Numbered from the stretch's first letter, positions 10,460 through 23,616 are shown. The stretch is DNA of 64,000 nucleotides from Blastocatellia bacterium (GCA_035455165.1 DATIFP010000214.1:2571-66570), one strand, 5' to 3'. Program-made: numbers and translations. Notes: generated by a model from the sequence alone, not told the origin.

Positions 10460-10534
<75 letters not shown>

Positions 10535-13303: not shown

Positions 13304-13379
13304 GACTCGTTCGTCTAGGGGCCTAGGACACCGCCCTTTCACGGCGGTAACACGGGTTCAAATCCCGTACGAGTCACCA
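13304..13379 (+). tRNA. tRNA-Glu (anticodon UUC)
   Basis: Acceptor GACTCGT/ACGAGTC. D-region TCGTCTAGGGGCCTAGGACA and anticodon loop CTTTCAC closely match canonical bacterial tRNA-Glu. Encoded CCA. Confidence 0.9.
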
Positions 13380-13505
13380 CTTTCCTATATAGCATCGTCC
13401 ATCAAGCGCCGCAGATCGTTTGCCCCAGCCAGAGTTTGGAACTAACCTTTGCTCGAAGAATTTGATTGAATGAACAGAGCAGATATCCGAAGGAGCAGCA
13501 ATGGA

Positions 13506-14396
13506 ATGAGGCACCACCTACTGAGCTTGTTACTAGTAATCACGGCGGCGATCGCATGTTCCGCATCGAGCGTTACCGCGAAAGCTAATGCACAGGAGTC
13601 ATCCACAAGGCCCCGTCGCGCGCCAGAGCAACAAGTCTCAAGCGAAGCGCGCTACGTTGTGCAACTCGGAGCTTCGTTCAGCACCGCCGAGAAGGCCAAT
13701 GAGCTGACTTCGCGATTGCAGCGCAAGTATCCGAACGCACACACCGAGAGCCCAAGCGCGTCTGAGACACTTTATCGCGTCCGTATAGGTCCCTATGACA
13801 CCCGCGAAGATGCCCAGCAGACGGCAATCGAACTCGAGAGCCAGGGATTCAAAGGAGTGACAATCCTCCCGTGGAGGCAGTCGTCACGAAAGCCCGCGTC
13901 AGAACAAGTCGAGAAACCGGTATCGACGAACCCGAGTCTGGAGCTGGAGGACGCGATGCGCCGCGCGATAAGCGACCTTTCGACTCAGATCGGATTGCTC
14001 GCCGACGAGATGCGAAAGCTGAGGGGCGATACCGAACGCAACTCGAGCATGATTGAGCTGCTGCTCAACGAAGATCGACTGGCGAAGGTGGAGGATAGAA
14101 TCCAGGATGCCTCCAACAACAAGGAACAGCTCGACGCTCGCGAGCAGGAGATTCAGCGCCGTATGCGGAATATTCCGGCCGAGGCCGCCCTCCGCGGCGG
14201 ACGCCGCGAGGAAGTGGAGGCCGCGCTACGCAGCGAGTTTCAGCGAGCGCTCGACGATACGCGAGCCCAACAAGCGGGTAATCAGCAACGTCTAGCCGAA
14301 CTAGTCGATCAGTCTGCGCGGCTGCGGACGCGACTGGAAAGCCTTCGAAAGAGGTTGGAACAAACAGACGTAAAGACGGACAAGGAGAAGGAGTGA
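13506..14396 (+). CDS. SPOR domain-containing protein with C-terminal coiled coil
   Basis: ATG 13506 (GAAGGAG upstream). Signal peptide. RYVVQLGASFSTAEKANELTSRLQRKYP...YRVRIGPYDTREDAQQT matches the SPOR peptidoglycan-binding fold pattern. Confidence 0.7.
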   Translation: MRHHLLSLLLVITAAIACSASSVTAKANAQESSTRPRRAPEQQVSSEARYVVQLGASFSTAEKANELTSRLQRKYPNAHTESPSASETLYRVRIGPYDTREDAQQTAIELESQGFKGVTILPWRQSSRKPASEQVEKPVSTNPSLELEDAMRRAISDLSTQIGLLADEMRKLRGDTERNSSMIELLLNEDRLAKVEDRIQDASNNKEQLDAREQEIQRRMRNIPAEAALRGGRREEVEAALRSEFQRALDDTRAQQAGNQQRLAELVDQSARLRTRLESLRKRLEQTDVKTDKEKE

Positions 14397-15143: not shown

Positions 15144-15599
15144 ATGGCGGGTCCAGAAACCGAACGATTTGTGAAGAGTTGGAACCGAATCCACAAGGAG
15201 ACATCGCGCGTTCTGAAGGCGGCACCCGACGGCAAACTCGACTGGCGACCCAAAGATGACATGTTTACGCTACGAGAGTTGATCGGCCATATCCCGCAGG
15301 CGGAGGACGTGCTCGCGCGTTCGGCCCTTGCGGGGTCCCCTCAGAAAACTCGGTTCGATTTCTCGAATCGCAGCGCGGCGGAAATCACTGACATGTTCGA
15401 CGCGCAGCATGAGGAACTCGTCAGTCAGGTGTCGCAGCTCACCGCCGACCAATTGAACGAAGAAGTCGAGTTTCATAGTAGGCGCATGCGCCGGATTCTG
15501 CTCTTGTGGTTCATGACCGAGCACGAGATACATCACAGAGGTCAATTGTTTGTCTATTATCGTCTGGCCGGAATAGAGCCGCCGAATATGCACGAGTAA
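15144..15599 (+). CDS. DinB/YfiT-like (DinB_2) metal-dependent hydrolase family protein
   Basis: AAGGAG RBS. DinB_2 motif (LIGHIPQAED) and the C-terminal HEIHHRGQLFVYYRL. Confidence 0.8.
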   Translation: MAGPETERFVKSWNRIHKETSRVLKAAPDGKLDWRPKDDMFTLRELIGHIPQAEDVLARSALAGSPQKTRFDFSNRSAAEITDMFDAQHEELVSQVSQLTADQLNEEVEFHSRRMRRILLLWFMTEHEIHHRGQLFVYYRLAGIEPPNMHE

Positions 15600-15600
15600 G

Positions 15601-16122
15601 ATGGTGAACAGGACATCACGGGGAAATCAGGGCAACAGGCGAACGGGCGAACGCAAGCGAGGCCGGGCGGCCGCGTCACCCCTTCGCATAACCGACAAGT
15701 TCGACAAGGTTTTTGAGAAGATCTACAGGCTTGTTCTACGCATACCGCGCGGGCGCGTCATGACCTACGGACAGATCGCGCGTTTGCTTGAAGAACGTTA
15801 TAGCCCGAGGCTCGTTGGCTGGGCCATGCACGCGACGCCAAAGGACGACCGCAATATTCCCTGGCACCGGGTCATCAATTCGCGAGGCGGCATTTCGACC
15901 GGTCGGGTGATTCTGACTCAGCCCGACGTCCAGCAGTTGCTGCTCGAGGCCGAGGGCGTGCTGTTCGATGAGCGCGGCCATTGCGATCTGAGCGTTTACC
16001 AGTGGTCTCCGAGGCAGCGCACGACCCGCGCAAAGCTCAACGCGTTACGAAAGAAGGCGGCTAAGAGCCATGCCACAACAAAGCCGAGGCCCTCGACAAA
16101 GACAAAGACGAGAGAAAGATAA
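15601..16122 (+). CDS. Alkyltransferase-like protein (MGMT-family DNA-binding domain, active-site Cys replaced by Trp)
   Basis: MTYGQIARLL...IPWHRVINS. The PCHRV alkyl-acceptor motif reads PWHRV, as in E. coli YbaZ/Atl. The ATG overlaps the previous stop (TAAGATG). Confidence 0.8.
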   Translation: MVNRTSRGNQGNRRTGERKRGRAAASPLRITDKFDKVFEKIYRLVLRIPRGRVMTYGQIARLLEERYSPRLVGWAMHATPKDDRNIPWHRVINSRGGISTGRVILTQPDVQQLLLEAEGVLFDERGHCDLSVYQWSPRQRTTRAKLNALRKKAAKSHATTKPRPSTKTKTRER

Positions 16123-16125
16123 CGA

Positions 16126-16548
16126 ATGGAAATCACGCCCGAAAGATTGCGATTGATACGCGAAAAGTTCGAAAGCAATCACTTTCCGAGATCGCTGGGC
16201 ATCGAGCTGGATTCGATTGAACAGGGCGCAGCTCGGTTGAGTCTGGAAGTCAAGCCGCAACACCTGCAGCTTGCAGGCGTGATGCACGGCGGCGCGATCG
16301 CAACCCTGATTGATACCGCGGTGGCCTTCGCGATAGTCGGCGCTTCACATCTCGGAGCGCGGTTCACCACGATCGAAATGAAAGTGAATTATCTCAGCCC
16401 CATCCGCGAGGGTCGAATAGTCGCGGAGGCCAAGTTGATTCGTGACGGAAGGCGAATCGTAGTTGCGGAGTGTGACGTCCTCGATTCGCGGGGCCGGCTC
16501 ACGGCGAAAGGGCTGTTGACCTACATGCGCCTCGACGAGGCGATGTAG
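16126..16548 (+). CDS. PaaI/YbgC-type hotdog-fold thioesterase
   Basis: GVMHGGAIATLIDTAVAFAI hotdog thioesterase signature. 140 aa. Confidence 0.8.
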   Translation: MEITPERLRLIREKFESNHFPRSLGIELDSIEQGAARLSLEVKPQHLQLAGVMHGGAIATLIDTAVAFAIVGASHLGARFTTIEMKVNYLSPIREGRIVAEAKLIRDGRRIVVAECDVLDSRGRLTAKGLLTYMRLDEAM

Positions 16549-16765
16549 CATGGACTTGAAACCTGGGAGCGCACGCGGCTCGCGCGCCTGTCATAAATCG
16601 CATGCCATTCCAGCACGCGGGCCGCGTGCGGTCCCAGGTACGAGGTATGTGCCCCTTCCTTTCACCCGACGACAAGCGTCGGTACAATAACTCGTGGCGG
16701 GTGCGTTGCGGCCCGCCAATCTCTTATGACCCGGCAACGCCAACTTCGAACCTTGCAGGACCGTT

Positions 16766-18508
16766 ATGACACCGCTCGGTAAGCTCATAAGCTACTTCGC
16801 ACCATACAGACGCATACTGATCTTCGGCGTCGTGTGTGTCTTCATGACGAATCTTGTGCGGCTCACGGCTCCGCTGGTCCTGCGCAATGCCGTCGACGAA
16901 CTCGCCGCGGGGGTTACGCACGCGCGGCTGCTCGAATACGCCGGACTGCTGATTCTGATAGCGCTCGGGCAAGGCGTCTTTCTTTTTACACAGCGTCGCC
17001 TGCTGATCAACATGTCGCGCGACATCGAATACGACTTGCGCAACGATTTCTACGAGCACTTGCAAAAGCTTCCGTTCGAGTTCTATCAGACGCATCGTAC
17101 GGGAGATTTGATGGCGCGCGCGACCAACGATCTTTCGGCGGTGAGAATGATCGTCGGACCCGCGCTGATGTACTCAATGAACACGGTGTTCGCGATGGCG
17201 TTGATCGTGCCGCTGATGGCGGCTATCAGCTGGCGGCTGACATTGCTCGCGTTTCTCTCAATGCCGCTGGTTGCTACCGCGACGAACTACTTTTCAAAGC
17301 GCATACACGATCGGTTCGAAAAAGTGCAGGAGTATTTCGGCACCGTTTCGAACCGGGCACAGGAATCACTGGCCGGCGTTCGCGTGATCCGAGCCTACAC
17401 ACAGGAGCGAGCGGAGATCGAGAGCTTTAAACACGTCAACCGCGAGTTCGTCGACCGCAACCTGAAGCTCATCCGTTTGTCAGGAGTCTTCCATCCGATA
17501 TTGCAGTTCTTCATCGGGCTCGGGTTCATCGCCGTGTTGTGGTACGGCGGGAGCCTGGTCATCGGCGGCGCAATCAGCATCGGGCAGTTCGTTCAGTTCA
17601 CGCTGTATCTTGGCTACCTGGTCTGGCCGATGATCGCGCTCGGCTGGGTGATCAATATCTTCCAACGCGGGATGGCTTCGATGGGCCGCATGCACAAGAT
17701 AATGTCAATCGAACCCGCGATTCGTGATACCGATCAAGCTTTGGCCATCGCTGGAATCGACGGCGAGATCGAGTTTCGCGACCTGACTTTCACGTATGGC
17801 GGAGCAAGCGAGCCAGCCTTGAGAGACATCAACCTGCACATCGAGCCCGGCCAGACGGTCGCGTTTGTCGGAGCAGTCGGGTCCGGAAAATCGACACTGA
17901 TGAATCTGATCGCTCGGTTGCTGGACGCCCCACCAGGACAAGTCTTGATCGACGGCCGTCCGATTCGCGAGATCCCGCTCGGCGTGTTGCGCAGCTCGAT
18001 CGGCTACGTCCCGCAGGAGACGTTTTTGTTCAGCGAAACCGTCGCCGAGAACATCGCATTCGGGGTGGAGAGAGCGACCGGCGAAGAAATCGAGCGCGCG
18101 GCTACCGAAGCCGGAATCGCGGAAGATATCCTCGAGTTCCCGCGGGGGTTCGAGACATTGGTTGGGGAACGCGGAATCACGCTTTCAGGCGGACAGAAGC
18201 AGCGAACGGCAATCGCTCGGGCGTTGATACGCCGGCCTCGAATTCTAATCCTGGACGACGCGTTGTCCTCGGTCGATACCTACACCGAAGAGAGAATCCT
18301 CGGCCACCTCCGGCGAATAATGATCGGCCGGACGAGTTTGATCGTCTCTCATCGGGTTTCGACGGTGAAGGACGCCGATTTGATCGTCGTTCTTGAAGAC
18401 GGCCGCATTGCCGAGCGCGGCACACATGATTCGTTGATCGATCGTGGCGGGCTTTATGCAGAGTTATATGAGAAGCAATTGTTGGAAGAAGAGCTGGCCG
18501 CGAGCTAG
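16766..18508 (+). CDS. ABC exporter, fused permease/ATP-binding subunit (MsbA/Mdl-like half transporter)
   Basis: Six predicted TM helices followed by Walker A (GAVGSGKST), ABC signature (LSGGQKQR) and Walker B (ILILDD). Confidence 0.9.
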   Translation: MTPLGKLISYFAPYRRILIFGVVCVFMTNLVRLTAPLVLRNAVDELAAGVTHARLLEYAGLLILIALGQGVFLFTQRRLLINMSRDIEYDLRNDFYEHLQKLPFEFYQTHRTGDLMARATNDLSAVRMIVGPALMYSMNTVFAMALIVPLMAAISWRLTLLAFLSMPLVATATNYFSKRIHDRFEKVQEYFGTVSNRAQESLAGVRVIRAYTQERAEIESFKHVNREFVDRNLKLIRLSGVFHPILQFFIGLGFIAVLWYGGSLVIGGAISIGQFVQFTLYLGYLVWPMIALGWVINIFQRGMASMGRMHKIMSIEPAIRDTDQALAIAGIDGEIEFRDLTFTYGGASEPALRDINLHIEPGQTVAFVGAVGSGKSTLMNLIARLLDAPPGQVLIDGRPIREIPLGVLRSSIGYVPQETFLFSETVAENIAFGVERATGEEIERAATEAGIAEDILEFPRGFETLVGERGITLSGGQKQRTAIARALIRRPRILILDDALSSVDTYTEERILGHLRRIMIGRTSLIVSHRVSTVKDADLIVVLEDGRIAERGTHDSLIDRGGLYAELYEKQLLEEELAAS

Positions 18509-18529
18509 CGTCCGGAGGAGTTCAGACTT

Positions 18530-18910
18530 ATGGGGACGTTTTACATTCGGTGCAAAGTTGAGAACATCACTGATAGAGCGCGCGCCGCAGTCGTTCCAAA
18601 GCTGCTGGTTGATACCGGGAGCGACTATACGTGGATCCCTGCAGCCACTCTTGAAAGGTTAGGTGTTGCTACGGAGAAGAAGGACTTGCCTTTTGTTATG
18701 GCAAACGGTCAACAAATAACTCGCAGCGTCGGCTTCGCGATTATCCGCTTCGACAAGTACTTCACGGTTGATGAAGTTGTATTCGCCGAAAAGGGCGATC
18801 TGGCGATTCTCGGCGCTCGAACGCTCGAAGGCCTTAACCTCGCGGTGGACTCGAAACGCAAGCGGCTTGTCGCCGCTGGTCCGCATCTTGCGGCTGTGAC
18901 CGCTGATTAG
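18530..18910 (+). CDS. Retropepsin-like (clan AA) aspartic protease domain protein
   Basis: GGAGGAG RBS 9 nt upstream. [13 protein letters not shown] matches the hydrophobic-hydrophobic-D-T/S-G-A/S active-site motif of bacterial retropepsin-like proteases. 126 aa, single lobe. Confidence 0.65.
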
Positions 18911-18921
18911 CTTTTGATTTC

Positions 18922-20799
18922 ATGGCAGATCATCACGAAGAAGAAATCCTAGGCAAAGCCTACGACGCGCGGCTGATGAAGCGGCTCCTCAAGTACCTGT
19001 GGCCGTACAAGTGGCACGCGCTCACCGCGCTCGTGCTCACAATGGGGAGCGCGCCGCTGGTGCTCGCCGGCGCGCCGCTCACCAAAGCGGCGATCGATCT
19101 GTTCCTGGCCCCCGATCCGTCAAAGCCGCCGTCCGGCTTTGCGCTGTTTCTTAAACATCTCGCGGAAAGATTCGGTTTCGGCGCGAGCCCATATCAAGGG
19201 ATCGTCTTCATCGCAATCGTCTTTCTTATCGCAAATCTCGCCGCATTCGCCGTCCAGTACACGCAAGCCATCGTGATGCAGGCGATGGGTCAGTACATAA
19301 TGTACGACCTGCGCAAACAGATCTTCGCGCACCTACAAAAGCTTTCCGTTCAGTTCTACGACCGCAATCCCGTTGGGCGCTTGATGACGCGGCTGACGAC
19401 TGACGTGGACGCCCTCAACGAGATGTTCACCGCCGGCGTGATCGCGATCTTCGGCGACGTCGCGATGATCTTCTACATAGTGATCTGGATGTTTCAGGTC
19501 AACTGGCAATTGGCCCTCGTCTCGTTTGCGATTCTGCCGCTGCTTGTCGCGCTCACGACGTGGTTCCGTCTCGGCGCGCGTTCGTCGTTTCGAGCCGTGC
19601 GGGTCCGCATCGCGCGAATCAACGCGTTCCTGCAGGAACACATAACGGGAATGCCGGTCGTCCAATTGTTCAATCGCGAAGAAAAAGAGATGCGCAAGTT
19701 CGATGAGATCAACGAAGCGCATCGCAAGGCCAACATCGACACCATCTTTTACTACGCGGTCTTCTATCCGGCGGTCGAGATCATCGGATCGATCGGCATA
19801 GGTCTGATCATCTGGTACGGCGGCGGCCAGGTTGTCCGCGGCGTCGCTACGATCGGCACGCTTGTGGCCTTTATTCAACTCGCGCGCTCGTTCTACGAGC
19901 CGATCTCGGACATCAGCGAGAAGTACAACATCCTTCAATCGGCGATGGCCTCATCCGAGCGAATCTTCAAGCTACTGGATGAGCCGGTCACCATCGCTTC
20001 GCCCGAGAAACCGGTTCCAATCGGACGGGCAAAAGGCCGCATCGAATTCCGGGATGTCTGGTTCGCCTACAAAGATGAAGACTGGATTTTGAAAGACGTC
20101 TCGTTCACCGTGGCGCCGGGCGAGCGGGTCGCGTTCGTCGGCCACACCGGAGCGGGCAAGACCACCATCACGAATTTGCTGCTGAGGTTTTACGACATTC
20201 AACGCGGGCAGATCCTGATCGACGGCGTAGACATCCGCGAGCTGGATCTTGAAGAGCTGCGCGCCAACTTCAGCATAGTCCTTCAGGATGTGTTTCTGTT
20301 TTCGGGCGATATCGCGGCCAACATACGCCTGGGCAATAAGGCAATCAGCGACACCCAGTTGCAGGAAGCGGCTCGCCAGGTTCACGCGGATCAGTTTGTT
20401 AAGCGGTTACCGGAAGGCTACGCTGCGGAGCTTCGCGAGCGAGGCGCGGGTCTCTCCGTAGGCCAAAAGCAACTTATCAGTTTCGCGCGAGCGCTGGCGT
20501 TTGATCCTCGCATTCTAATTTTGGACGAAGCCACAAGCTCGATCGACACCGAGACCGAGATCTTGATTCGCGACGCGGTCGAGCGCTTGATGGAAGGCCG
20601 GACCTCGCTGGTGATCGCGCACCGGTTGTCGACGATTCAATCCGTAGACAAGATCATCGTGATGCACAAAGGCGAGATCCGAGAGACGGGAACTCACCAG
20701 GACTTGCTCGCTCAGCGAGGCCTCTACTGGCGGCTTTATCAATTGCAGTTTTATCAGGACTACAAGCGCACGTTTGCGGAAAGCGTCGCGGATGATTAG
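18922..20799 (+). CDS. ABC exporter, fused permease/ATP-binding subunit (partner half transporter)
   Basis: TM domain followed by Walker A (GHTGAGKTT), signature (LSVGQKQL) and Walker B (ILILDE). Starts 12 nt after the protease gene. Confidence 0.9.
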
Positions 20800-20835: not shown

Positions 20836-23616
20836 TCACTTCTTGCAGTTGATAACATCAACGGTCACCCCATCCGTTTCAAACGTCACCATCCCATCAC
20901 GGCCGGTCTGTAACAGCTTCACTCCGTGGGCAAGATAGCTGTTCACGACCGATGGATGAGGATGACCAAACCGGCTGCGCTCGCCGACGGAGATTACTGC
21001 GTATCGAGGATTCACTGCGTTAATGAACGCTTCGGTCGAAGACGTGCGCGAGCCGTGATGCGGGACTTTCAATAGGTCCGCGTGTAAGTTGATCCGTGAC
21101 CGAACAAGCCGATCTTCCGCGCTTTCTTCGATGTCACCAGCCAGCAGAATAGAAACCGAACCGTACACAAGCCGCAACACAACTGAATCATCGTTACCTG
21201 ATGTTACCCGGCGGCCATCCGCGGGCGGCGGCCAGAACACTTCAATCAGTACGCCATCGATCTCGAACTTCTCTCCTGCTGAGACTGAATATATCGGCGT
21301 GCTCTGCTCGTGAGCTGCGCGAGCGAATCGCTCATACTCAGGATCATCCGGCACCGCGTAACCGACGATGGCTTGACGAACGTCAAGGTTCCGGACAACG
21401 TCGGCAAGACCGCCGATGTGATCGGCGTGCGCGTGGGTCGCAAGCACGTAGTCGACTCGGGTCCGGCCCAGCGACCAGATGAACCTCGAGACGACCGCCT
21501 CGCCGATCGAGAACGAGCTGTCGCCAGGATATCCTTCGCTGTCCTCCGCTTGAGTCATTGCGCTGTTCGTTCGCCGCGCACCGAATTGAAGCTCGCCGCC
21601 TCCGTCAACGAGCAACGTCTTGCCGTGAGGAAACACGACGAGGGCCGAGTCCCCCTGTCCGACATCGAGAAAGTGAATCGCGAGCCTGCCGGCGGACTGC
21701 TTGACTGGAGGTCTGACGACCGCGACGAGCGCGACGGTCAAGGCAAGTGCGCAGATCAGAGAGAGGACGAACCGGCGTCGGGTCGACGGGGCGGCGAGGC
21801 GCGCTCGAGGTCTAAGGACCGCTTCGATTTGATCGATCGGGAACACTCGATCAATCGGCTCCCAACGATCTATCAACACCGCCACCATCGCTAGCGGGGC
21901 GAAGTACATCGCGTATACAACAGAATGCCAGCTTTCATAGTGAGCTACGCGAAACGTCGCCAGCGGCAAGTGGGAAAACGGCACGATCGCATTAACGAGT
22001 ATGTCACGGGCGAAATTCACCACGTGCTCGAGCAACGCTGCAGTCCACTCGCTGAGAGCACCAAACGCAATCGCGCCGAGCGCCGCGAGCATCAACACTC
22101 CGGTCAGCAAGCCGGCTGCGACGTTGAGCAGAACTCCGATCGGCGCCACTCGATTGAAGTACAACGCCATCAGCGGCAGCGTCGAAAGTTGAATCGACCC
22201 TGAGGTGACCACCAACAGAACGATGCCTCGGAGCGTCGATTGAATCCGCACTCGCCCCAGCACACGCGCCGCTTCTGCCTTAGGAAGTCTGTAGCGTATC
22301 GGCGCGTGCTTCATCTCGGCCTCGAATGCGCGGGCATCCCAGAAAAGAGCTTCGGCAAAGTATCGAACGGGCCCTGAACAAGCAGGCGGGTGTGGCGTAC
22401 GTGAGGTCGGGCGCCACTCGCCCACGCGACGAAGCTTGTCCGCCAAAGGCACCGCAAGACCCACGATCCCCGCAACCGCGACGAAGCTCAACTGAAACCC
22501 GGGATCGGCCACCAGAGCCGGTTTCAAGGTGAGCATCACGAACGCTGCGAGCGCCACCGTATTGACCGACGCGGCTCGCCTGAACAGCATCGGCCCGATC
22601 AGTCCGACGGTTATCATAGTCGTCGCGCGAGTAACCGGCGGAGCCAGACCGACCATGATGGCGTATGCCCAAAGGACGACAATGCACACGAACACGCGTG
22701 GAAGCGCGCGCCGCCTTAGCGCCGAGCGCCCGCCCAAAAGCGCCCACGCGATGATGCCTATGTGCAGGCCCGCGATCACCAGCGTGTGAAACGTCGAACC
22801 CTCACGCAGCTTTTCCTCCGTATCGGCGTCCAAGAAATATCGGTTGCCGGCGAGCATCGCCTTCAACATGCCGGCTACCTGAGGCTTGAAGCGCGCGTCG
22901 ATCGCGCTCATCAGGCTCAATCGTATATGGTAAAGAAATGCCAGCACGACATTCCTCGACCCTTCATCCAGGTGTTCGATTAGCAGCGGACTCTTGATGG
23001 CGCCTTTGAGGTCGTAGCCTCGACGTTCCAGAAACTCATTGAAGTCCGGCGAGCCCGGATTGGAGAATTGTCTCGCTCGTTCGAGTCTCACCAGGACTCG
23101 AATGCGAGACCCATAGTCCAGGGTGAGATTCGCGAACTCGCGTTGCGACTGTTCATCGCTTAATGAAATGACCAGCCGCGCGCGACCCGAAGCGACTATG
23201 GTTTCATCGAGCACCCGTATCGTCTCGGCGTCAACGTCGAGGTAATAGGCTCCCGGCGCAGGTTCGGGTGGCGCGCCAAGCCTACCGGTCAGCTCAACCG
23301 GATCATCGGGAGTGATGACTCTCGACTCGTAGAGGCTTACAAGTCTCGACGCGCCTACGCGGGTCCGATCAACCGTCGCGAGAAGCGCTCCGGCGACGCA
23401 AAAGCTAAGCATCAATGCCGCAGAAGCCCAGAGCTCTCTCCTTCCGTGGATCAGCCTTATTACCCCGACGACCGCCAGTAGCCCAGCCGCGACGATACCT
23501 GGCCGCCCGAACTGGAGCCATCGGTCAGCGAGAATTCCGGAAACGAGCGCGATCATCAGATAAAGAAACGGCTGGCGCGCGGGAATGAATGATGACTGAG
23601 AGAGAGACCGGGACAT
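20836..23616 (-). CDS. comEC: DNA internalisation competence protein ComEC/Rec2 (membrane domain plus C-terminal metallo-beta-lactamase domain)
   Basis: Polytopic N-terminal region followed by the MBL motif YVLATHAHADHIGGL and HHGS. Confidence 0.9.
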   Translation of the reverse strand: MSRSLSQSSFIPARQPFLYLMIALVSGILADRWLQFGRPGIVAAGLLAVVGVIRLIHGRRELWASAALMLSFCVAGALLATVDRTRVGASRLVSLYESRVITPDDPVELTGRLGAPPEPAPGAYYLDVDAETIRVLDETIVASGRARLVISLSDEQSQREFANLTLDYGSRIRVLVRLERARQFSNPGSPDFNEFLERRGYDLKGAIKSPLLIEHLDEGSRNVVLAFLYHIRLSLMSAIDARFKPQVAGMLKAMLAGNRYFLDADTEEKLREGSTFHTLVIAGLHIGIIAWALLGGRSALRRRALPRVFVCIVVLWAYAIMVGLAPPVTRATTMITVGLIGPMLFRRAASVNTVALAAFVMLTLKPALVADPGFQLSFVAVAGIVGLAVPLADKLRRVGEWRPTSRTPHPPACSGPVRYFAEALFWDARAFEAEMKHAPIRYRLPKAEAARVLGRVRIQSTLRGIVLLVVTSGSIQLSTLPLMALYFNRVAPIGVLLNVAAGLLTGVLMLAALGAIAFGALSEWTAALLEHVVNFARDILVNAIVPFSHLPLATFRVAHYESWHSVVYAMYFAPLAMVAVLIDRWEPIDRVFPIDQIEAVLRPRARLAAPSTRRRFVLSLICALALTVALVAVVRPPVKQSAGRLAIHFLDVGQGDSALVVFPHGKTLLVDGGGELQFGARRTNSAMTQAEDSEGYPGDSSFSIGEAVVSRFIWSLGRTRVDYVLATHAHADHIGGLADVVRNLDVRQAIVGYAVPDDPEYERFARAAHEQSTPIYSVSAGEKFEIDGVLIEVFWPPPADGRRVTSGNDDSVVLRLVYGSVSILLAGDIEESAEDRLVRSRINLHADLLKVPHHGSRTSSTEAFINAVNPRYAVISVGERSRFGHPHPSVVNSYLAHGVKLLQTGRDGMVTFETDGVTVDVINCKK

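What the first reader, a model, noticed from the sequence alone, without database searches (positions are those of the whole stretch)
16766..20799. Retropepsin-like aspartic protease gene wedged between two ABC half-transporter genes
A 126-aa clan-AA (DTGS) single-lobe aspartic protease ORF has its own strong RBS and sits 22 nt after the first and 12 nt before the second fused permease-ATPase exporter gene. Partner half-transporter genes are normally directly adjacent. An embedded dimerising aspartic protease suggests a processing step coupled to export, comparable to the C39 peptidase domains of bacteriocin exporters. The upstream DinB_2/ATL/thioesterase genes are on the same strand and tightly spaced and may belong to the same transcript.
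Basis: partly seen in the sequence, partly recalled or inferred. Interest (0 to 1): 0.55.

Follow-up and report, generated by a model that had tools for sequence, protein, structure and literature searches.

The report
Stray retropepsin-like gene inside ABC operon
A real, well-conserved small aspartic-protease-like gene does sit between two ABC exporter genes, but it is one of several unrelated small genes found at that junction in related soil bacteria, so nothing links it to export.

Summary
ABC1 (16766-18508), a 126-aa DTGS protein (18530-18910, GGAGGAG 9 nt upstream) and ABC2 (18922-20799) lie on one strand with 21- and 11-nt gaps. The small gene is genuine: it scores above the Pfam thresholds for retropepsin-like families, the AlphaFold model (pLDDT 91) best matches the DDI1 retroviral-protease-like domain, and dN/dS is 0.02-0.08.

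The export-coupled processing idea is not supported. Homologues 70-83% identical sit in unrelated contexts (after guaA, NrfD-like and sigma-54 regulator genes) with no conserved partner. The ABC context occurs only in one Blastocatellia subclade. Orthologous ABC pairs (84-90% identical) either abut (0-1 nt) or carry other inserts.

In 53 close metagenomic junctions, 19 hold the protease, 9 hold other genes (23S-rRNA-IVS-type four-helix-bundle, DUF6438, BrnA-like antitoxin) and 25 are short. All 20 distant orthologues are short. Four of 25 ABC-context protease sequences have a broken DTG. The exporter has no C39 domain and there is no conserved precursor-peptide gene.

Best reading: a cytoplasmic, probably homodimeric protease of unknown substrate, inserted at a variable junction between the two ABC genes and expressed by hitch-hiking. 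Low interest; new member of a known kind.

The parts
16661..16688 (+). Promoter-like site (TTCACC-16-TACAAT). The TACAAT box at 16683-16688 is conserved upstream of ABC1 in syntenic loci.
   Evidence: Consensus scan. The motif 'GCTACAATAA' recurs in the otherwise unalignable spacers of WIN, L005, L009, L011, L012, L013, L024 and L093.
16695..16718 (+). Conserved GC-rich hairpin TGGCGGGTGCGTTGCGGCCCGCCA, starting 6 nt after the -10-like box. Candidate roles: 5'-terminal mRNA stem-loop, operator, or terminator of the upstream genes.
   Evidence: The stem GGCGGG/CCCGCC is invariant in 8 loci and the loop varies. Its function was not tested.
16766..18508 (+). ABC1, a half-transporter (transmembrane domain + nucleotide-binding domain) with a degenerate Walker B (ILILDDALS, Asp in place of the catalytic Glu).
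   Evidence: Pfam ABC_membrane 5e-54 and ABC_tran 3e-32. Best NCBIfam match is SmdA at 476 bits, below its 845 cut-off. The motif is read from the translation.
18509..18529 (+). 21-nt spacer carrying the Shine-Dalgarno sequence GGAGGAG (18514-18520). This is the 5' edge of the inserted segment.
   Evidence: Orthologues L089 and L090 go straight from the ABC1 stop to the ABC2 ATG.
18530..18910 (+). Free-standing retropepsin-like (clan AA) protein of 126 aa with no signal peptide. D28-T29-G30-S31 at 18611-18622, flap-tip A58-N59-G60-Q61 at 18701-18712, I93-L94-G95 at 18806-18814.
   Evidence: Pfam PF13975 and PF13650 above cut-off. AlphaFold2 pLDDT 91. Foldseek top hit is the DDI1 retroviral-protease-like domain 3s8i, then retroviral proteases. 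dN/dS 0.02-0.08.
18911..18921 (+). 11-nt spacer with no Shine-Dalgarno sequence before ABC2. ABC2 translation is probably coupled to termination of the protease ORF (inference).
   Evidence: In protease-bearing loci, the gap from the upstream cistron's stop (the protease, or the extra 115-aa gene in L103/L109) to the ABC2 start is about -47 to +17 nt in most cases, and up to about 50 nt in L140/L141.
18922..20799 (+). ABC2, the partner half-transporter with a canonical Walker B-Glu (ILILDEATS) and a degenerate signature motif (LSVGQ).
   Evidence: Pfam. NCBIfam MsbA/SmdB-like matches, all below cut-off. Motifs are read from the translation.
15144..16548 (+). Upstream DinB, alkyltransferase-like and 4HBT thioesterase genes. 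They are neighbours of the ABC operon only in part of the clade and are not part of the feature.
   Evidence: Pfam. Present upstream of ABC1 in L005, L091 and L092, and L093 keeps the alkyltransferase-like and 4HBT genes; absent in L089 and L090.

Best explanation
The 126-aa ORF is a genuine member of a strongly conserved, chromosomal family of free-standing retropepsin-like (clan AA) proteins found in soil Acidobacteriota, Planctomycetota, Verrucomicrobiota and other phyla. By analogy with all retropepsins, it most likely forms a cytoplasmic homodimer in which each subunit supplies one Asp of the catalytic pair, and it cleaves a still unknown cytoplasmic substrate.

Its position between the two cistrons of a heterodimeric ABC exporter is a lineage-specific insertion of about 412 nt in one Blastocatellia subclade. 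The junction was originally 0-1 nt wide and behaves as a variable site for small accessory DNA. The gene uses the operon's promoter and its own Shine-Dalgarno sequence. ABC2, which follows 11 nt after its stop and has no Shine-Dalgarno sequence of its own, is probably translated by re-initiation. The link to the exporter is therefore one of shared expression, not shared function.

Shown: gene reality, fold, motifs, purifying selection, variable contexts, the insertion polymorphism and the alternative inserts at the junction. Inferred: dimerisation, catalysis, cytoplasmic location, translational coupling and the lack of a functional tie.
For: - Family and fold: Pfam hits above cut-off. AF2 model pLDDT 91. 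Foldseek: DDI1 retroviral-protease-like domain 3s8i (E 2e-4, TM 0.61), then retroviral proteases.
- Selection: dN/dS 0.02-0.08. D-[TS]-G is kept in 110 of 116 close homologues.
- Contexts of homologues 70-83% identical: between an unknown gene and a VWA gene, between an NrfD/Fer4 gene and GH25, after guaA in 12 loci, after a sigma-54 regulator in 4, and others. No recurrent partner family appears. ABC flanks occur only where the ABC proteins are 80-93% identical to the window's.
- ABC orthologues without the gene: L089 (gap 1 nt), L090 (0 nt, with comEC downstream as in the window), L091 (88-nt palindrome), L092 (116 nt), L093 (two other genes). L092 and L093 nest inside the protease-positive clade in the ABC trees.
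- Metagenome census: of 53 close junctions, 19 hold the protease, 9 hold other genes and 25 are short. All 20 distant junctions are short.
- Alternative inserts identified: 23S_rRNA_IVP/TIGR02436, DUF6438 and CopG/BrnA antitoxin.
- No mobile-element hallmarks: no flanking inverted repeats beyond chance, no conserved flanking DNA, and no match in 72,556 plasmids or 50,697 phages. Gene GC tracks host GC (r=0.88).
- The ABC1 C-terminus and ABC2 N-terminus are the same with or without the insert.
Against: - The arrangement is old and stable within its subclade (dS is saturated between syntenic orthologues). The protease is the commonest gene-sized insert at the junction (19 of 28). This could reflect selection for co-expression with the exporter.
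- The protease stop stays within about 20 nt of the ABC2 start in most protease-positive loci, so the two are tied at the expression level.
- No substrate, dimer or activity has been demonstrated.
- I could not determine whether genomes lacking the insert carry the gene elsewhere.
Confidence: 0.7

Rival explanations
1. The embedded protease matures or processes a cargo, or a subunit, of the flanking ABC exporter. It would be a stand-alone functional analogue of the C39 peptidase domain of bacteriocin exporters.
For: - The three genes are co-directional with tight spacing, and the protease has a strong Shine-Dalgarno sequence.
- The arrangement is kept under purifying selection in at least 25 distinct sequences of one subclade.
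- A weak lead only: characterised bacterial retropepsin-like enzymes RimB and RloA cut glutamate-rich sequences, and ABC1 ends in ...LLEEELAAS while ABC2 starts with MADHHEEE.
Against: - Orthologous exporters work without it. Junctions of 0-1 nt or with unrelated inserts occur in ABC pairs 84-94% identical to the window's.
- Close protease homologues are never next to ABC genes outside this subclade.
- The catalytic triad is broken in 4 of 25 ABC-context sequences (VTV, DIG, DTA, DTV).
- The ABC proteins have no C39 domain and score below cut-off for the bacteriocin and NHLP exporter models. They look like SmdAB/MsbA-type exporters.
- There is no conserved small ORF. The thioesterase-ABC1 spacer ranges from 12 to 2318 nt, and only a promoter-like box plus hairpin is conserved.
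- The Glu-rich termini are identical in orthologues without the protease, and the protein is not in the RimB/Rlo family (no PF05618 hit).
Confidence: 0.07
2. The gene belongs to a guild of small selfish, addiction or defence genes that accumulate at permissive junctions between cistrons. The protease would act as a toxin-like or anti-phage effector rather than a housekeeping enzyme.
For: - The same junction collects a BrnA-type antitoxin module, IVS-type four-helix-bundle genes inside palindromic repeat arms, and other orphan genes.
- Gene calls fuse protease homologues to fragments of a BrnA antitoxin (P0030; PF12441 precomputed) and of a protein I take to be an Uma2-family endonuclease (P0121; recognised by eye, not scanned).
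- Weak PADLOC hits to the candidate defence protein PDC-M08B (E about 1e-3).
- In the window the gene has lower GC3 than its neighbours (0.58 against 0.73-0.75).
- The gene is present or absent among very close relatives.
Against: - There is no conserved partner gene such as an antitoxin or immunity gene.
- Sequence conservation is very strong and the family tree largely follows taxonomy, which is unlike fast-evolving defence genes.
- The gene is absent from the plasmid and phage collections and from PHROGs.
- It has no flanking repeats.
- The PADLOC hits cover only about 40 residues around the DTG motif.
Confidence: 0.15
3. The protein is kept for a non-catalytic role, as a pseudo-protease, binding protein or scaffold. 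Alternatively it is kept simply as the upstream ORF that maintains translational coupling of ABC2.
For: - In a diverse alignment the invariant residues are W35, L41, R65, D90, G95, L99 and L113, not D28 (22 of 25 sequences keep it).
- Among 50%-identity cluster representatives many lack D-T/S-G.
- 4 of 25 ABC-context sequences lack it while remaining 73-92% identical overall.
- ABC2 has no Shine-Dalgarno sequence of its own.
Against: - D-[TS]-G is intact in 95% of close homologues and in 78 of 83 genome loci.
- A mere spacer ORF would not show dN/dS of 0.03 or 70% identity across phyla.
- The flap and Ile-Leu-Gly motifs are also conserved.
Confidence: 0.08

Closest known systems
Retroviral-protease-like (RVP) domain of eukaryotic Ddi1/DDI2
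   Same: Best structural match of the model (3s8i: E 2e-4, TM 0.61, 25% identity; also 4z2z, 2i1a, 7d66, 7efy). Single-lobe fold, D-[ST]-G-[AS] motif, no signal peptide. Obligate homodimer in Ddi1 (established knowledge).
   Different: Ddi1 carries UBL and UBA domains and acts on ubiquitylated proteins. Here the protein is the bare domain in a bacterium. Sequence similarity is too low for HMMER to detect against PDB.
Retroviral proteases (HIV-1, EIAV, FIV, XMRV, M-PMV; MEROPS A2)
   Same: Same fold, DTG motif, flap hairpin and hydrophobic-hydrophobic-Gly motif, and size (about 100-125 aa).
   Different: Not part of a gag-pol polyprotein or any retroelement. It is chromosomal, with no reverse transcriptase or integrase nearby, and absent from the phage and plasmid collections.
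Characterised bacterial retropepsin-like enzymes: RimB (Pseudomonas), RloA (P. aeruginosa), APRc (Rickettsia)
   Same: Bacterial clan-AA single-lobe proteases (papers PMC11957791, PMC12239564, PMC4140852). The related DUF785 protein Lpg0085 (2pma) is a lower-ranked structural hit. RimB is cytoplasmic, as predicted here.
   Different: - RimB and RloA are reported with ATP-grasp partners (RimK, RloC) encoded in the same operon. No such partner gene recurs next to this family.
- RloA has a signal peptide. From my own knowledge, APRc is membrane-embedded, whereas this protein has neither feature.
- The Pfam families differ: PF13975/PF13650 here, with no PF05618 hit.
Peptidase-containing ABC transporters (C39 domain bacteriocin exporters; TIGR01193, TIGR03796)
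   Different: There the peptidase is a cysteine protease domain fused to the transporter and conserved with it, and the precursor peptide genes lie nearby. Here the protease is a separate aspartic-type gene, it is dispensable in orthologous operons, the models score below cut-off (303 against 524 bits; 342 against 853), and there is no precursor gene.
Heterodimeric ABC exporters with one degenerate ATP site (SmdAB/MdlAB, TM287/288, LmrCD, BmrCD type)
   Same: Two adjacent half-transporter genes. ABC1 has Walker B ...DD (no catalytic Glu), paired with a degenerate signature motif LSVGQ in ABC2. Best NCBIfam matches are SmdA and SmdB/MsbA.
   Different: Scores are well below the equivalog cut-offs, so this is not SmdAB proper. 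An extra cistron is inserted between the partners in this lineage.

Membership tests
Clan AA retropepsin-like aspartic proteases (Pfam PF13975 gag-asp_proteas / PF13650 Asp_protease_2) | Profile match above the curated gathering score | tested here: met
   31.0 bits against a 28.2 cut-off, and 30.5 against 24.3.
Clan AA retropepsin-like aspartic proteases | Hydrophobic-hydrophobic-Asp-Thr/Ser-Gly-Ser/Ala active-site motif, conserved among homologues | tested here: met
   L-V-D-T-G-S at residues 26-31. D-[TS]-G is kept in 110 of 116 close homologues and 78 of 83 genome loci. It is lost in a minority: 4 of 25 ABC-context sequences and 3 of 25 in the diverse alignment.
Clan AA retropepsin-like aspartic proteases | [quoted passage not shown] | tested here: met
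   AF2 model pLDDT 91, pTM 0.82. Foldseek hits are DDI1 RVP and retroviral proteases at probability 1.00, TM 0.53-0.61. I93-L94-G95 is present with G95 invariant, and G60 at the hairpin tip is nearly invariant.
Clan AA retropepsin-like aspartic proteases | Homodimer that forms the two-Asp active site | not testable with these tools
Dimerisation is inferred from the family.
Clan AA retropepsin-like aspartic proteases | Peptidase activity that depends on the Asp | not testable with these tools
   Needs biochemistry.
TIGR03698 clan_AA_DTGF subfamily | Score at or above the curated cut-off | tested here: not met
   29.5 bits against a 57.35 cut-off. Related, but not a member.
Peptide-processing ABC export systems (C39-type bacteriocin exporters) | Peptidase domain in the transporter, or a match to TIGR01193 / TIGR03796 above cut-off | tested here: not met
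   Only ABC_membrane and ABC_tran domains. 303 against 524 bits and 342 against 853 bits.
Peptide-processing ABC export systems | Protease and exporter conserved together across homologues | tested here: not met
   The exporter occurs without the protease and the protease occurs without the exporter.
Peptide-processing ABC export systems | Precursor peptide gene nearby | tested here: not met
   No conserved small ORF. The thioesterase-ABC1 spacer ranges from 12 to 2318 nt, and only a promoter-like box and a hairpin are conserved. ABC2 is followed directly by a convergent comEC gene.
Heterodimeric ABC exporter with a degenerate nucleotide-binding site | Two co-transcribed half-transporters, one lacking the catalytic Glu after Walker B and the partner having a degenerate signature motif | tested here: met
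   ABC1 has ILILDDALS with LSGGQ. ABC2 has ILILDEATS with LSVGQ (translations). Adjacency is ancestral.
SmdA/SmdB (MdlAB) equivalogs | NCBIfam equivalog score at or above cut-off | tested here: not met
   SmdA 476 against 845 bits. SmdB 372 against 746 bits.
Mobile element (IS, MITE, integron cassette, or IVS-like hairpin element) | Flanking inverted or direct repeats, conserved ends, or carriage on plasmids or phages | tested here: not met
   No conserved flanks. The longest inverted match between the flanks is at chance level. No target-site duplication at the junction. No plasmid or phage hits.

The most novel reading that the evidence does not exclude
The boundary between the two cistrons of this ABC exporter operon is a genuine insertion or exchange hotspot. 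It repeatedly captures small orphan genes: the retropepsin-like gene, IVS-type four-helix-bundle genes inside palindromic heptamer-repeat arms, a BrnA-type antitoxin module, DUF6438, and a coiled-coil gene. On this reading the retropepsin-like protein is a member of a guild of operon hitch-hikers, with an addiction, defence or conflict-related role rather than a housekeeping one. A related but less likely variant is that, in this lineage, it has been co-opted to act on the Glu-rich termini of the exporter subunits.
Probability: 0.15. Interest if true: 0.5.

Novelty: new member of a known kind. Interest (0 to 1): 0.25.

Why it matters
It matters mainly as a caution. Tight operon embedding, a private ribosome-binding site and even long-term conservation of gene order do not establish a shared function. 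A synteny survey from both sides (protease and exporter) overturned an attractive 'export-coupled processing' story.

Two modest positives remain:
- The ORF belongs to a large, very slowly evolving family of bare retropepsin-like proteins (about 70-80% identity across several phyla). The family is uncharacterised, it is widespread in soil bacteria, and its substrate is unknown.
- The ABC1|ABC2 junction gives a clean natural series (empty, hairpin, or one of at least five different inserts). This could be used to study how small genes enter and ride on operons, including IVS-like hairpin elements outside rRNA.

Tried and rejected
- Export-coupled processing: rejected on synteny, on the exporter type and on the lack of a precursor gene (see above).
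- Spurious ORF: rejected (dN/dS 0.02-0.08; thousands of homologues).
- Recent horizontal transfer or mobile element: no repeats, target duplication or conserved ends. No plasmid, phage or PHROG hits. Gene GC tracks host GC. The NJ tree largely follows taxonomy. Some cross-phylum nesting and the lower GC3 in the window leave occasional transfer possible.
- Remnants of the protease gene in the 88-nt, 116-nt and two-gene junctions of L091-L093: none found by blastn-short or tblastn.
- Second copy in the window: the only other tblastn hit (40161-39973) is antisense to a CTP synthase gene, so it is noise.
- Domain fusions as functional hints: the longer homologues are read-through or merged gene calls, not true fusions.
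- Solved relatives by sequence: none, with either a single sequence or a profile.
- Literature search for a retropepsin/ABC operon link: no papers found.
- Whether L018 and L049 represent independent insertions at the same junction could not be resolved. They are close to the family consensus, so NJ placement is uninformative.


Full report
**1. Observation**

- ABC1: 16766-18508.
- A 126-aa ORF: 18530-18910.
- ABC2: 18922-20799, all on the + strand.

The non-coding gaps are 21 and 11 nt. GGAGGAG lies 9 nt before the ATG of the small ORF, and no Shine-Dalgarno sequence precedes ABC2. Pfam places the small protein in gag-asp_proteas (PF13975) and Asp_protease_2 (PF13650), just above their gathering scores. 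Both large proteins are ABC_membrane + ABC_tran. The three upstream genes are DinB, an alkyltransferase-like protein and a 4HBT thioesterase.

**2. What the small ORF is**

It is a real gene.
- An identical protein is deposited as 'retroviral-like aspartic protease family protein [Blastocatellia bacterium]'. About 7,900 proteins match at E<=1e-3, and the best 120 are 76-100% identical.
- An exhaustive search of 50%-identity cluster representatives finds 1,949 clusters at E<=1e-3 and 586 at E<=1e-10.
- Among syntenic orthologues dN/dS is 0.02-0.08 with saturated dS.

An AlphaFold2 model built from 25 diverse homologues has pLDDT 91. Its best PDB matches are the retroviral-protease-like domain of human DDI1 (3s8i, TM 0.61), other Ddi1 RVP domains and retroviral proteases. 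Lpg0085 (DUF785) ranks lower.

The sequence has the family hallmarks: L-V-D-T-G-S (residues 26-31), a beta-hairpin tipped by A-N-G-Q, and I-L-G (93-95). It has no signal peptide or hydrophobic segment, so I infer it is cytoplasmic.

D-[TS]-G is kept in 110 of 116 close homologues and 78 of 83 genome loci, but it is not invariant. In a diverse alignment the invariant positions are W35, L41, R65, D90, G95, L99 and L113.

It scores below the cut-off for TIGR03698. It has no detectable sequence relative in PDB.

**3. Is it tied to the ABC pair? The protease side**

The first look-ups already disagreed.
- An 86%-identical homologue shares the DinB-ATL-thioesterase-ABC1-protease-ABC2 order.
- An 83%-identical one lies between an unknown gene and a VWA gene.
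- A 79%-identical one lies between an NrfD/Fer4 gene and a GH25 gene.

A scan of one genome per species found at least 574 species with a relative. The best 80 are 68-95% identical and come from Acidobacteriota, Planctomycetota, Verrucomicrobiota, Binatia, delta- and gammaproteobacteria, Chloroflexi and others. Flanking GC ranges from 0.35 to 0.68.

I called genes in these loci and clustered the neighbours.
- ABC genes flank the protease only in about 10 Blastocatellia loci, where the ABC proteins are 80-93% identical to the window's.
- 12 loci (mostly Pyrinomonadaceae) have it directly after guaA.
- 4 have it after a sigma-54 regulator, 4 after the NrfD/Fer4 gene, and 3 between an oxidoreductase and an esterase-like gene.
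- The rest are singletons. No partner family recurs.

The family tree largely follows taxonomy, and gene GC follows host GC (r=0.88). There are no hits in 72,556 plasmids, 50,697 phages or PHROGs. There are no conserved flanks or flanking inverted repeats. It behaves as a resident chromosomal gene whose neighbourhood changes between families.

**4. Is it tied to the ABC pair? The exporter side**

ABC2 homologues 84-90% identical were located on long contigs.
- L089 and L090 have ABC1 and ABC2 abutting (TAG-C-ATG and TAA-ATG). L090 keeps the downstream comEC seen in the window.
- L091 has an 88-nt perfect palindrome. L092 has 116 nt of non-coding DNA. L093 has two unrelated genes of 248 and 115 aa.
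- No remnant of the protease gene is detectable in these.

The ABC1 C-terminus (...LYEKQLLEEELAAS) and ABC2 N-terminus (MADHHEEE...) are the same with or without the insert. The insert is therefore about 412 nt dropped exactly between the stop and start codons, with no target duplication. In the ABC trees, L092 and L093 nest within the protease-positive group, while L089, L090 and L091 branch outside it.

A metagenome scan with the ABC2 N-terminus gave 73 junctions that had both partners.

| ABC2 N-terminal identity to the window | n | Protease | Other gene-sized insert | Short gap |
|---|---|---|---|---|
| >=73% (close) | 53 | 19 (2 also carry a 115-aa coiled-coil gene) | 9 | 25 (8 under 20 nt; 17 of 20-130 nt) |
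| <=66% (distant) | 20 | 0 | 0 | 20 (-5 to 85 nt; one of 199 nt) |

The other inserts are:
- two different lineages of 23S_rRNA_IVP / TIGR02436 four-helix-bundle proteins, one of them frameshifted in the closest relatives of the window (L094 and L135, 94% ABC2 identity);
- a DUF6438 secreted protein;
- a CopG/BrnA-type antitoxin.

The four-helix-bundle genes sit between inverted arms of tandem heptamers. Several 'short' junctions are the same kind of hairpin without a gene.

So adjacency is ancestral. The junction is a variable site, and the protease is its commonest insert, but only one of several alternatives.

**5. Other tests of the processing idea**

- The exporter has no peptidase domain. 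It scores far below the cut-offs of the bacteriocin and NHLP exporter models. Its best matches are SmdA, SmdB and MsbA, also below cut-off.
- It has the signature of an obligate heterodimer with one degenerate ATP site: ABC1 Walker B ILILDD, and ABC2 signature motif LSVGQ.
- The thioesterase-ABC1 spacer varies from 12 to 2318 nt among syntenic loci. The only conserved piece is a TACAAT box followed 6 nt later by the hairpin TGGCGGG-N10-CCCGCCA (window 16683-16718). There is no conserved small ORF, and the ABC genes probably have their own promoter rather than sharing the DinB/ATL/thioesterase transcript.
- Of 25 distinct ABC-context protease sequences, four have a broken triad: VTV, DIG (a cluster of 59 member sequences), DTA and DTV. 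That is hard to reconcile with an obligatory processing step.

**6. How it most likely works**

Shown: the gene is real, has a retropepsin fold, is under strong constraint, and is an insertion at a polymorphic junction.

Inferred from the family: two subunits pair so that the two D28 residues form the active site, and the enzyme cleaves a cytoplasmic substrate that is unrelated to its neighbours and conserved across phyla.

Inferred from the anatomy: transcription starts at the promoter upstream of ABC1. The protease initiates from its own Shine-Dalgarno sequence. ABC2 re-initiates after the protease stop. The protease stop lies about -47 to +17 nt from the ABC2 start in most protease-positive loci, and up to about 50 nt in L140/L141. 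In L103 and L109 an extra 115-aa gene lies between them, and that gene's stop is about 10 nt from the ABC2 start.

Evidence for each is listed in the structured fields.

**7. Comparison with known systems**

It works like, and passes the tested membership criteria of, clan-AA retropepsin-like proteases. Dimerisation and activity are untested.

It is not a member of TIGR03698, nor of the RimB/Rlo (DUF785) family. The RimB and Rlo proteases are reported with ATP-grasp partners in the same operon, and RloA is secreted. It is also not part of any peptidase-containing ABC export system. The nearest structural analogue is the Ddi1 RVP domain, but nothing here links it to Ddi1-type biology.

**8. Verdict**

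It is a new member of a known, uncharacterised kind in an incidental position. Interest is 0.25. The residual value lies in the uncharacterised, highly conserved family and in the junction hotspot, including IVS-like hairpin elements outside rRNA.

Noticed in passing
window 16683-16718; also L005, L009, L011, L012, L013, L024, L093 (spacers upstream of ABC1): A TACAAT box followed 6 nt later by the GC hairpin TGGCGGGTGCG(Y)TGCGGCCCGCCA is the only conserved element in a spacer that otherwise varies from 12 to 2318 nt. It looks like a promoter plus a 5'-terminal stem-loop, or a palindromic operator. No Rfam family matches it.
   Followed up: partly
L094, L098, L106, L107, L111, L131, L135 (ABC1|ABC2 junction); empty versions in L091 5913-6000, L096, L127, L130, L133: Four-helix-bundle genes (Pfam 23S_rRNA_IVP, TIGR02436; two lineages) sit between inverted arms of tandem heptamers, e.g. 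GGTTACAGGTGACAGG...CCTGTAACCTGTCACC. Gene-less hairpins with the same kind of arms occupy the same junction in other contigs. The layout resembles 23S rRNA intervening sequences, but inside a protein-coding operon.
   Followed up: partly
L093 4766-5512 and 5642-5989; L103 and L109 (junction): A 115-119-aa coiled-coil protein of unknown family occurs at the junction either with the protease (L103, L109) or with a 248-aa protein that has only a weak DUF5677 match (L093). It has a weak PADLOC PbeC hit (E 3e-4).
   Followed up: partly
L154 (junction, 875-nt gap); P0030; P0121: A CopG/BrnA-type antitoxin gene lies at the junction in L154. In P0030 a BrnA-like fragment is merged with a protease homologue in one gene call (PF12441 precomputed). 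In P0121 the merged N-terminal fragment looks to me like an Uma2-family endonuclease, recognised by eye and not scanned. These suggest the protease often neighbours toxin-antitoxin-type small genes.
   Followed up: no
window 16766-18508 and 18922-20799: The ABC pair has the asymmetry typical of heterodimeric exporters. ABC1 has Walker B ILILDD (no catalytic Glu) with a canonical LSGGQ. ABC2 has ILILDE with a degenerate LSVGQ.
   Followed up: partly
window 18530-18910: GC3 of the protease gene is 0.58, against 0.73-0.75 for the flanking ABC genes and 0.675 +/- 0.037 for long ORFs in the window. Across 83 loci the gene averages 3.4 GC points below its flanks while tracking them (r=0.88).
   Followed up: partly
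L021, L034, L064, L069, L088 (upstream of the protease gene, downstream of guaA); L070, L047, L140: Tandem heptamer repeats (GATTTTG, CTGACTA, TGTCATT, CTGACAA) often lie next to the protease gene. In the guaA context they end in TTTATAAT, a possible private promoter.
   Followed up: no
L162, L005/P0020, L013, L049: These ABC-context orthologues are otherwise well conserved (73-92% identity) but have a broken catalytic triad: VTV, DIG, DTA and DTV. The DIG form represents a cluster of 59 member sequences.
   Followed up: partly
window 10462-10534, 13304-13379, 13470-14396, 20836-23616: tRNA-Lys(TTT) and tRNA-Glu(TTC) genes, a SPOR-domain coiled-coil protein upstream of the cluster, and a convergent comEC (DUF4131 + Competence + metallo-beta-lactamase) gene 36 nt after ABC2.
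   Followed up: no
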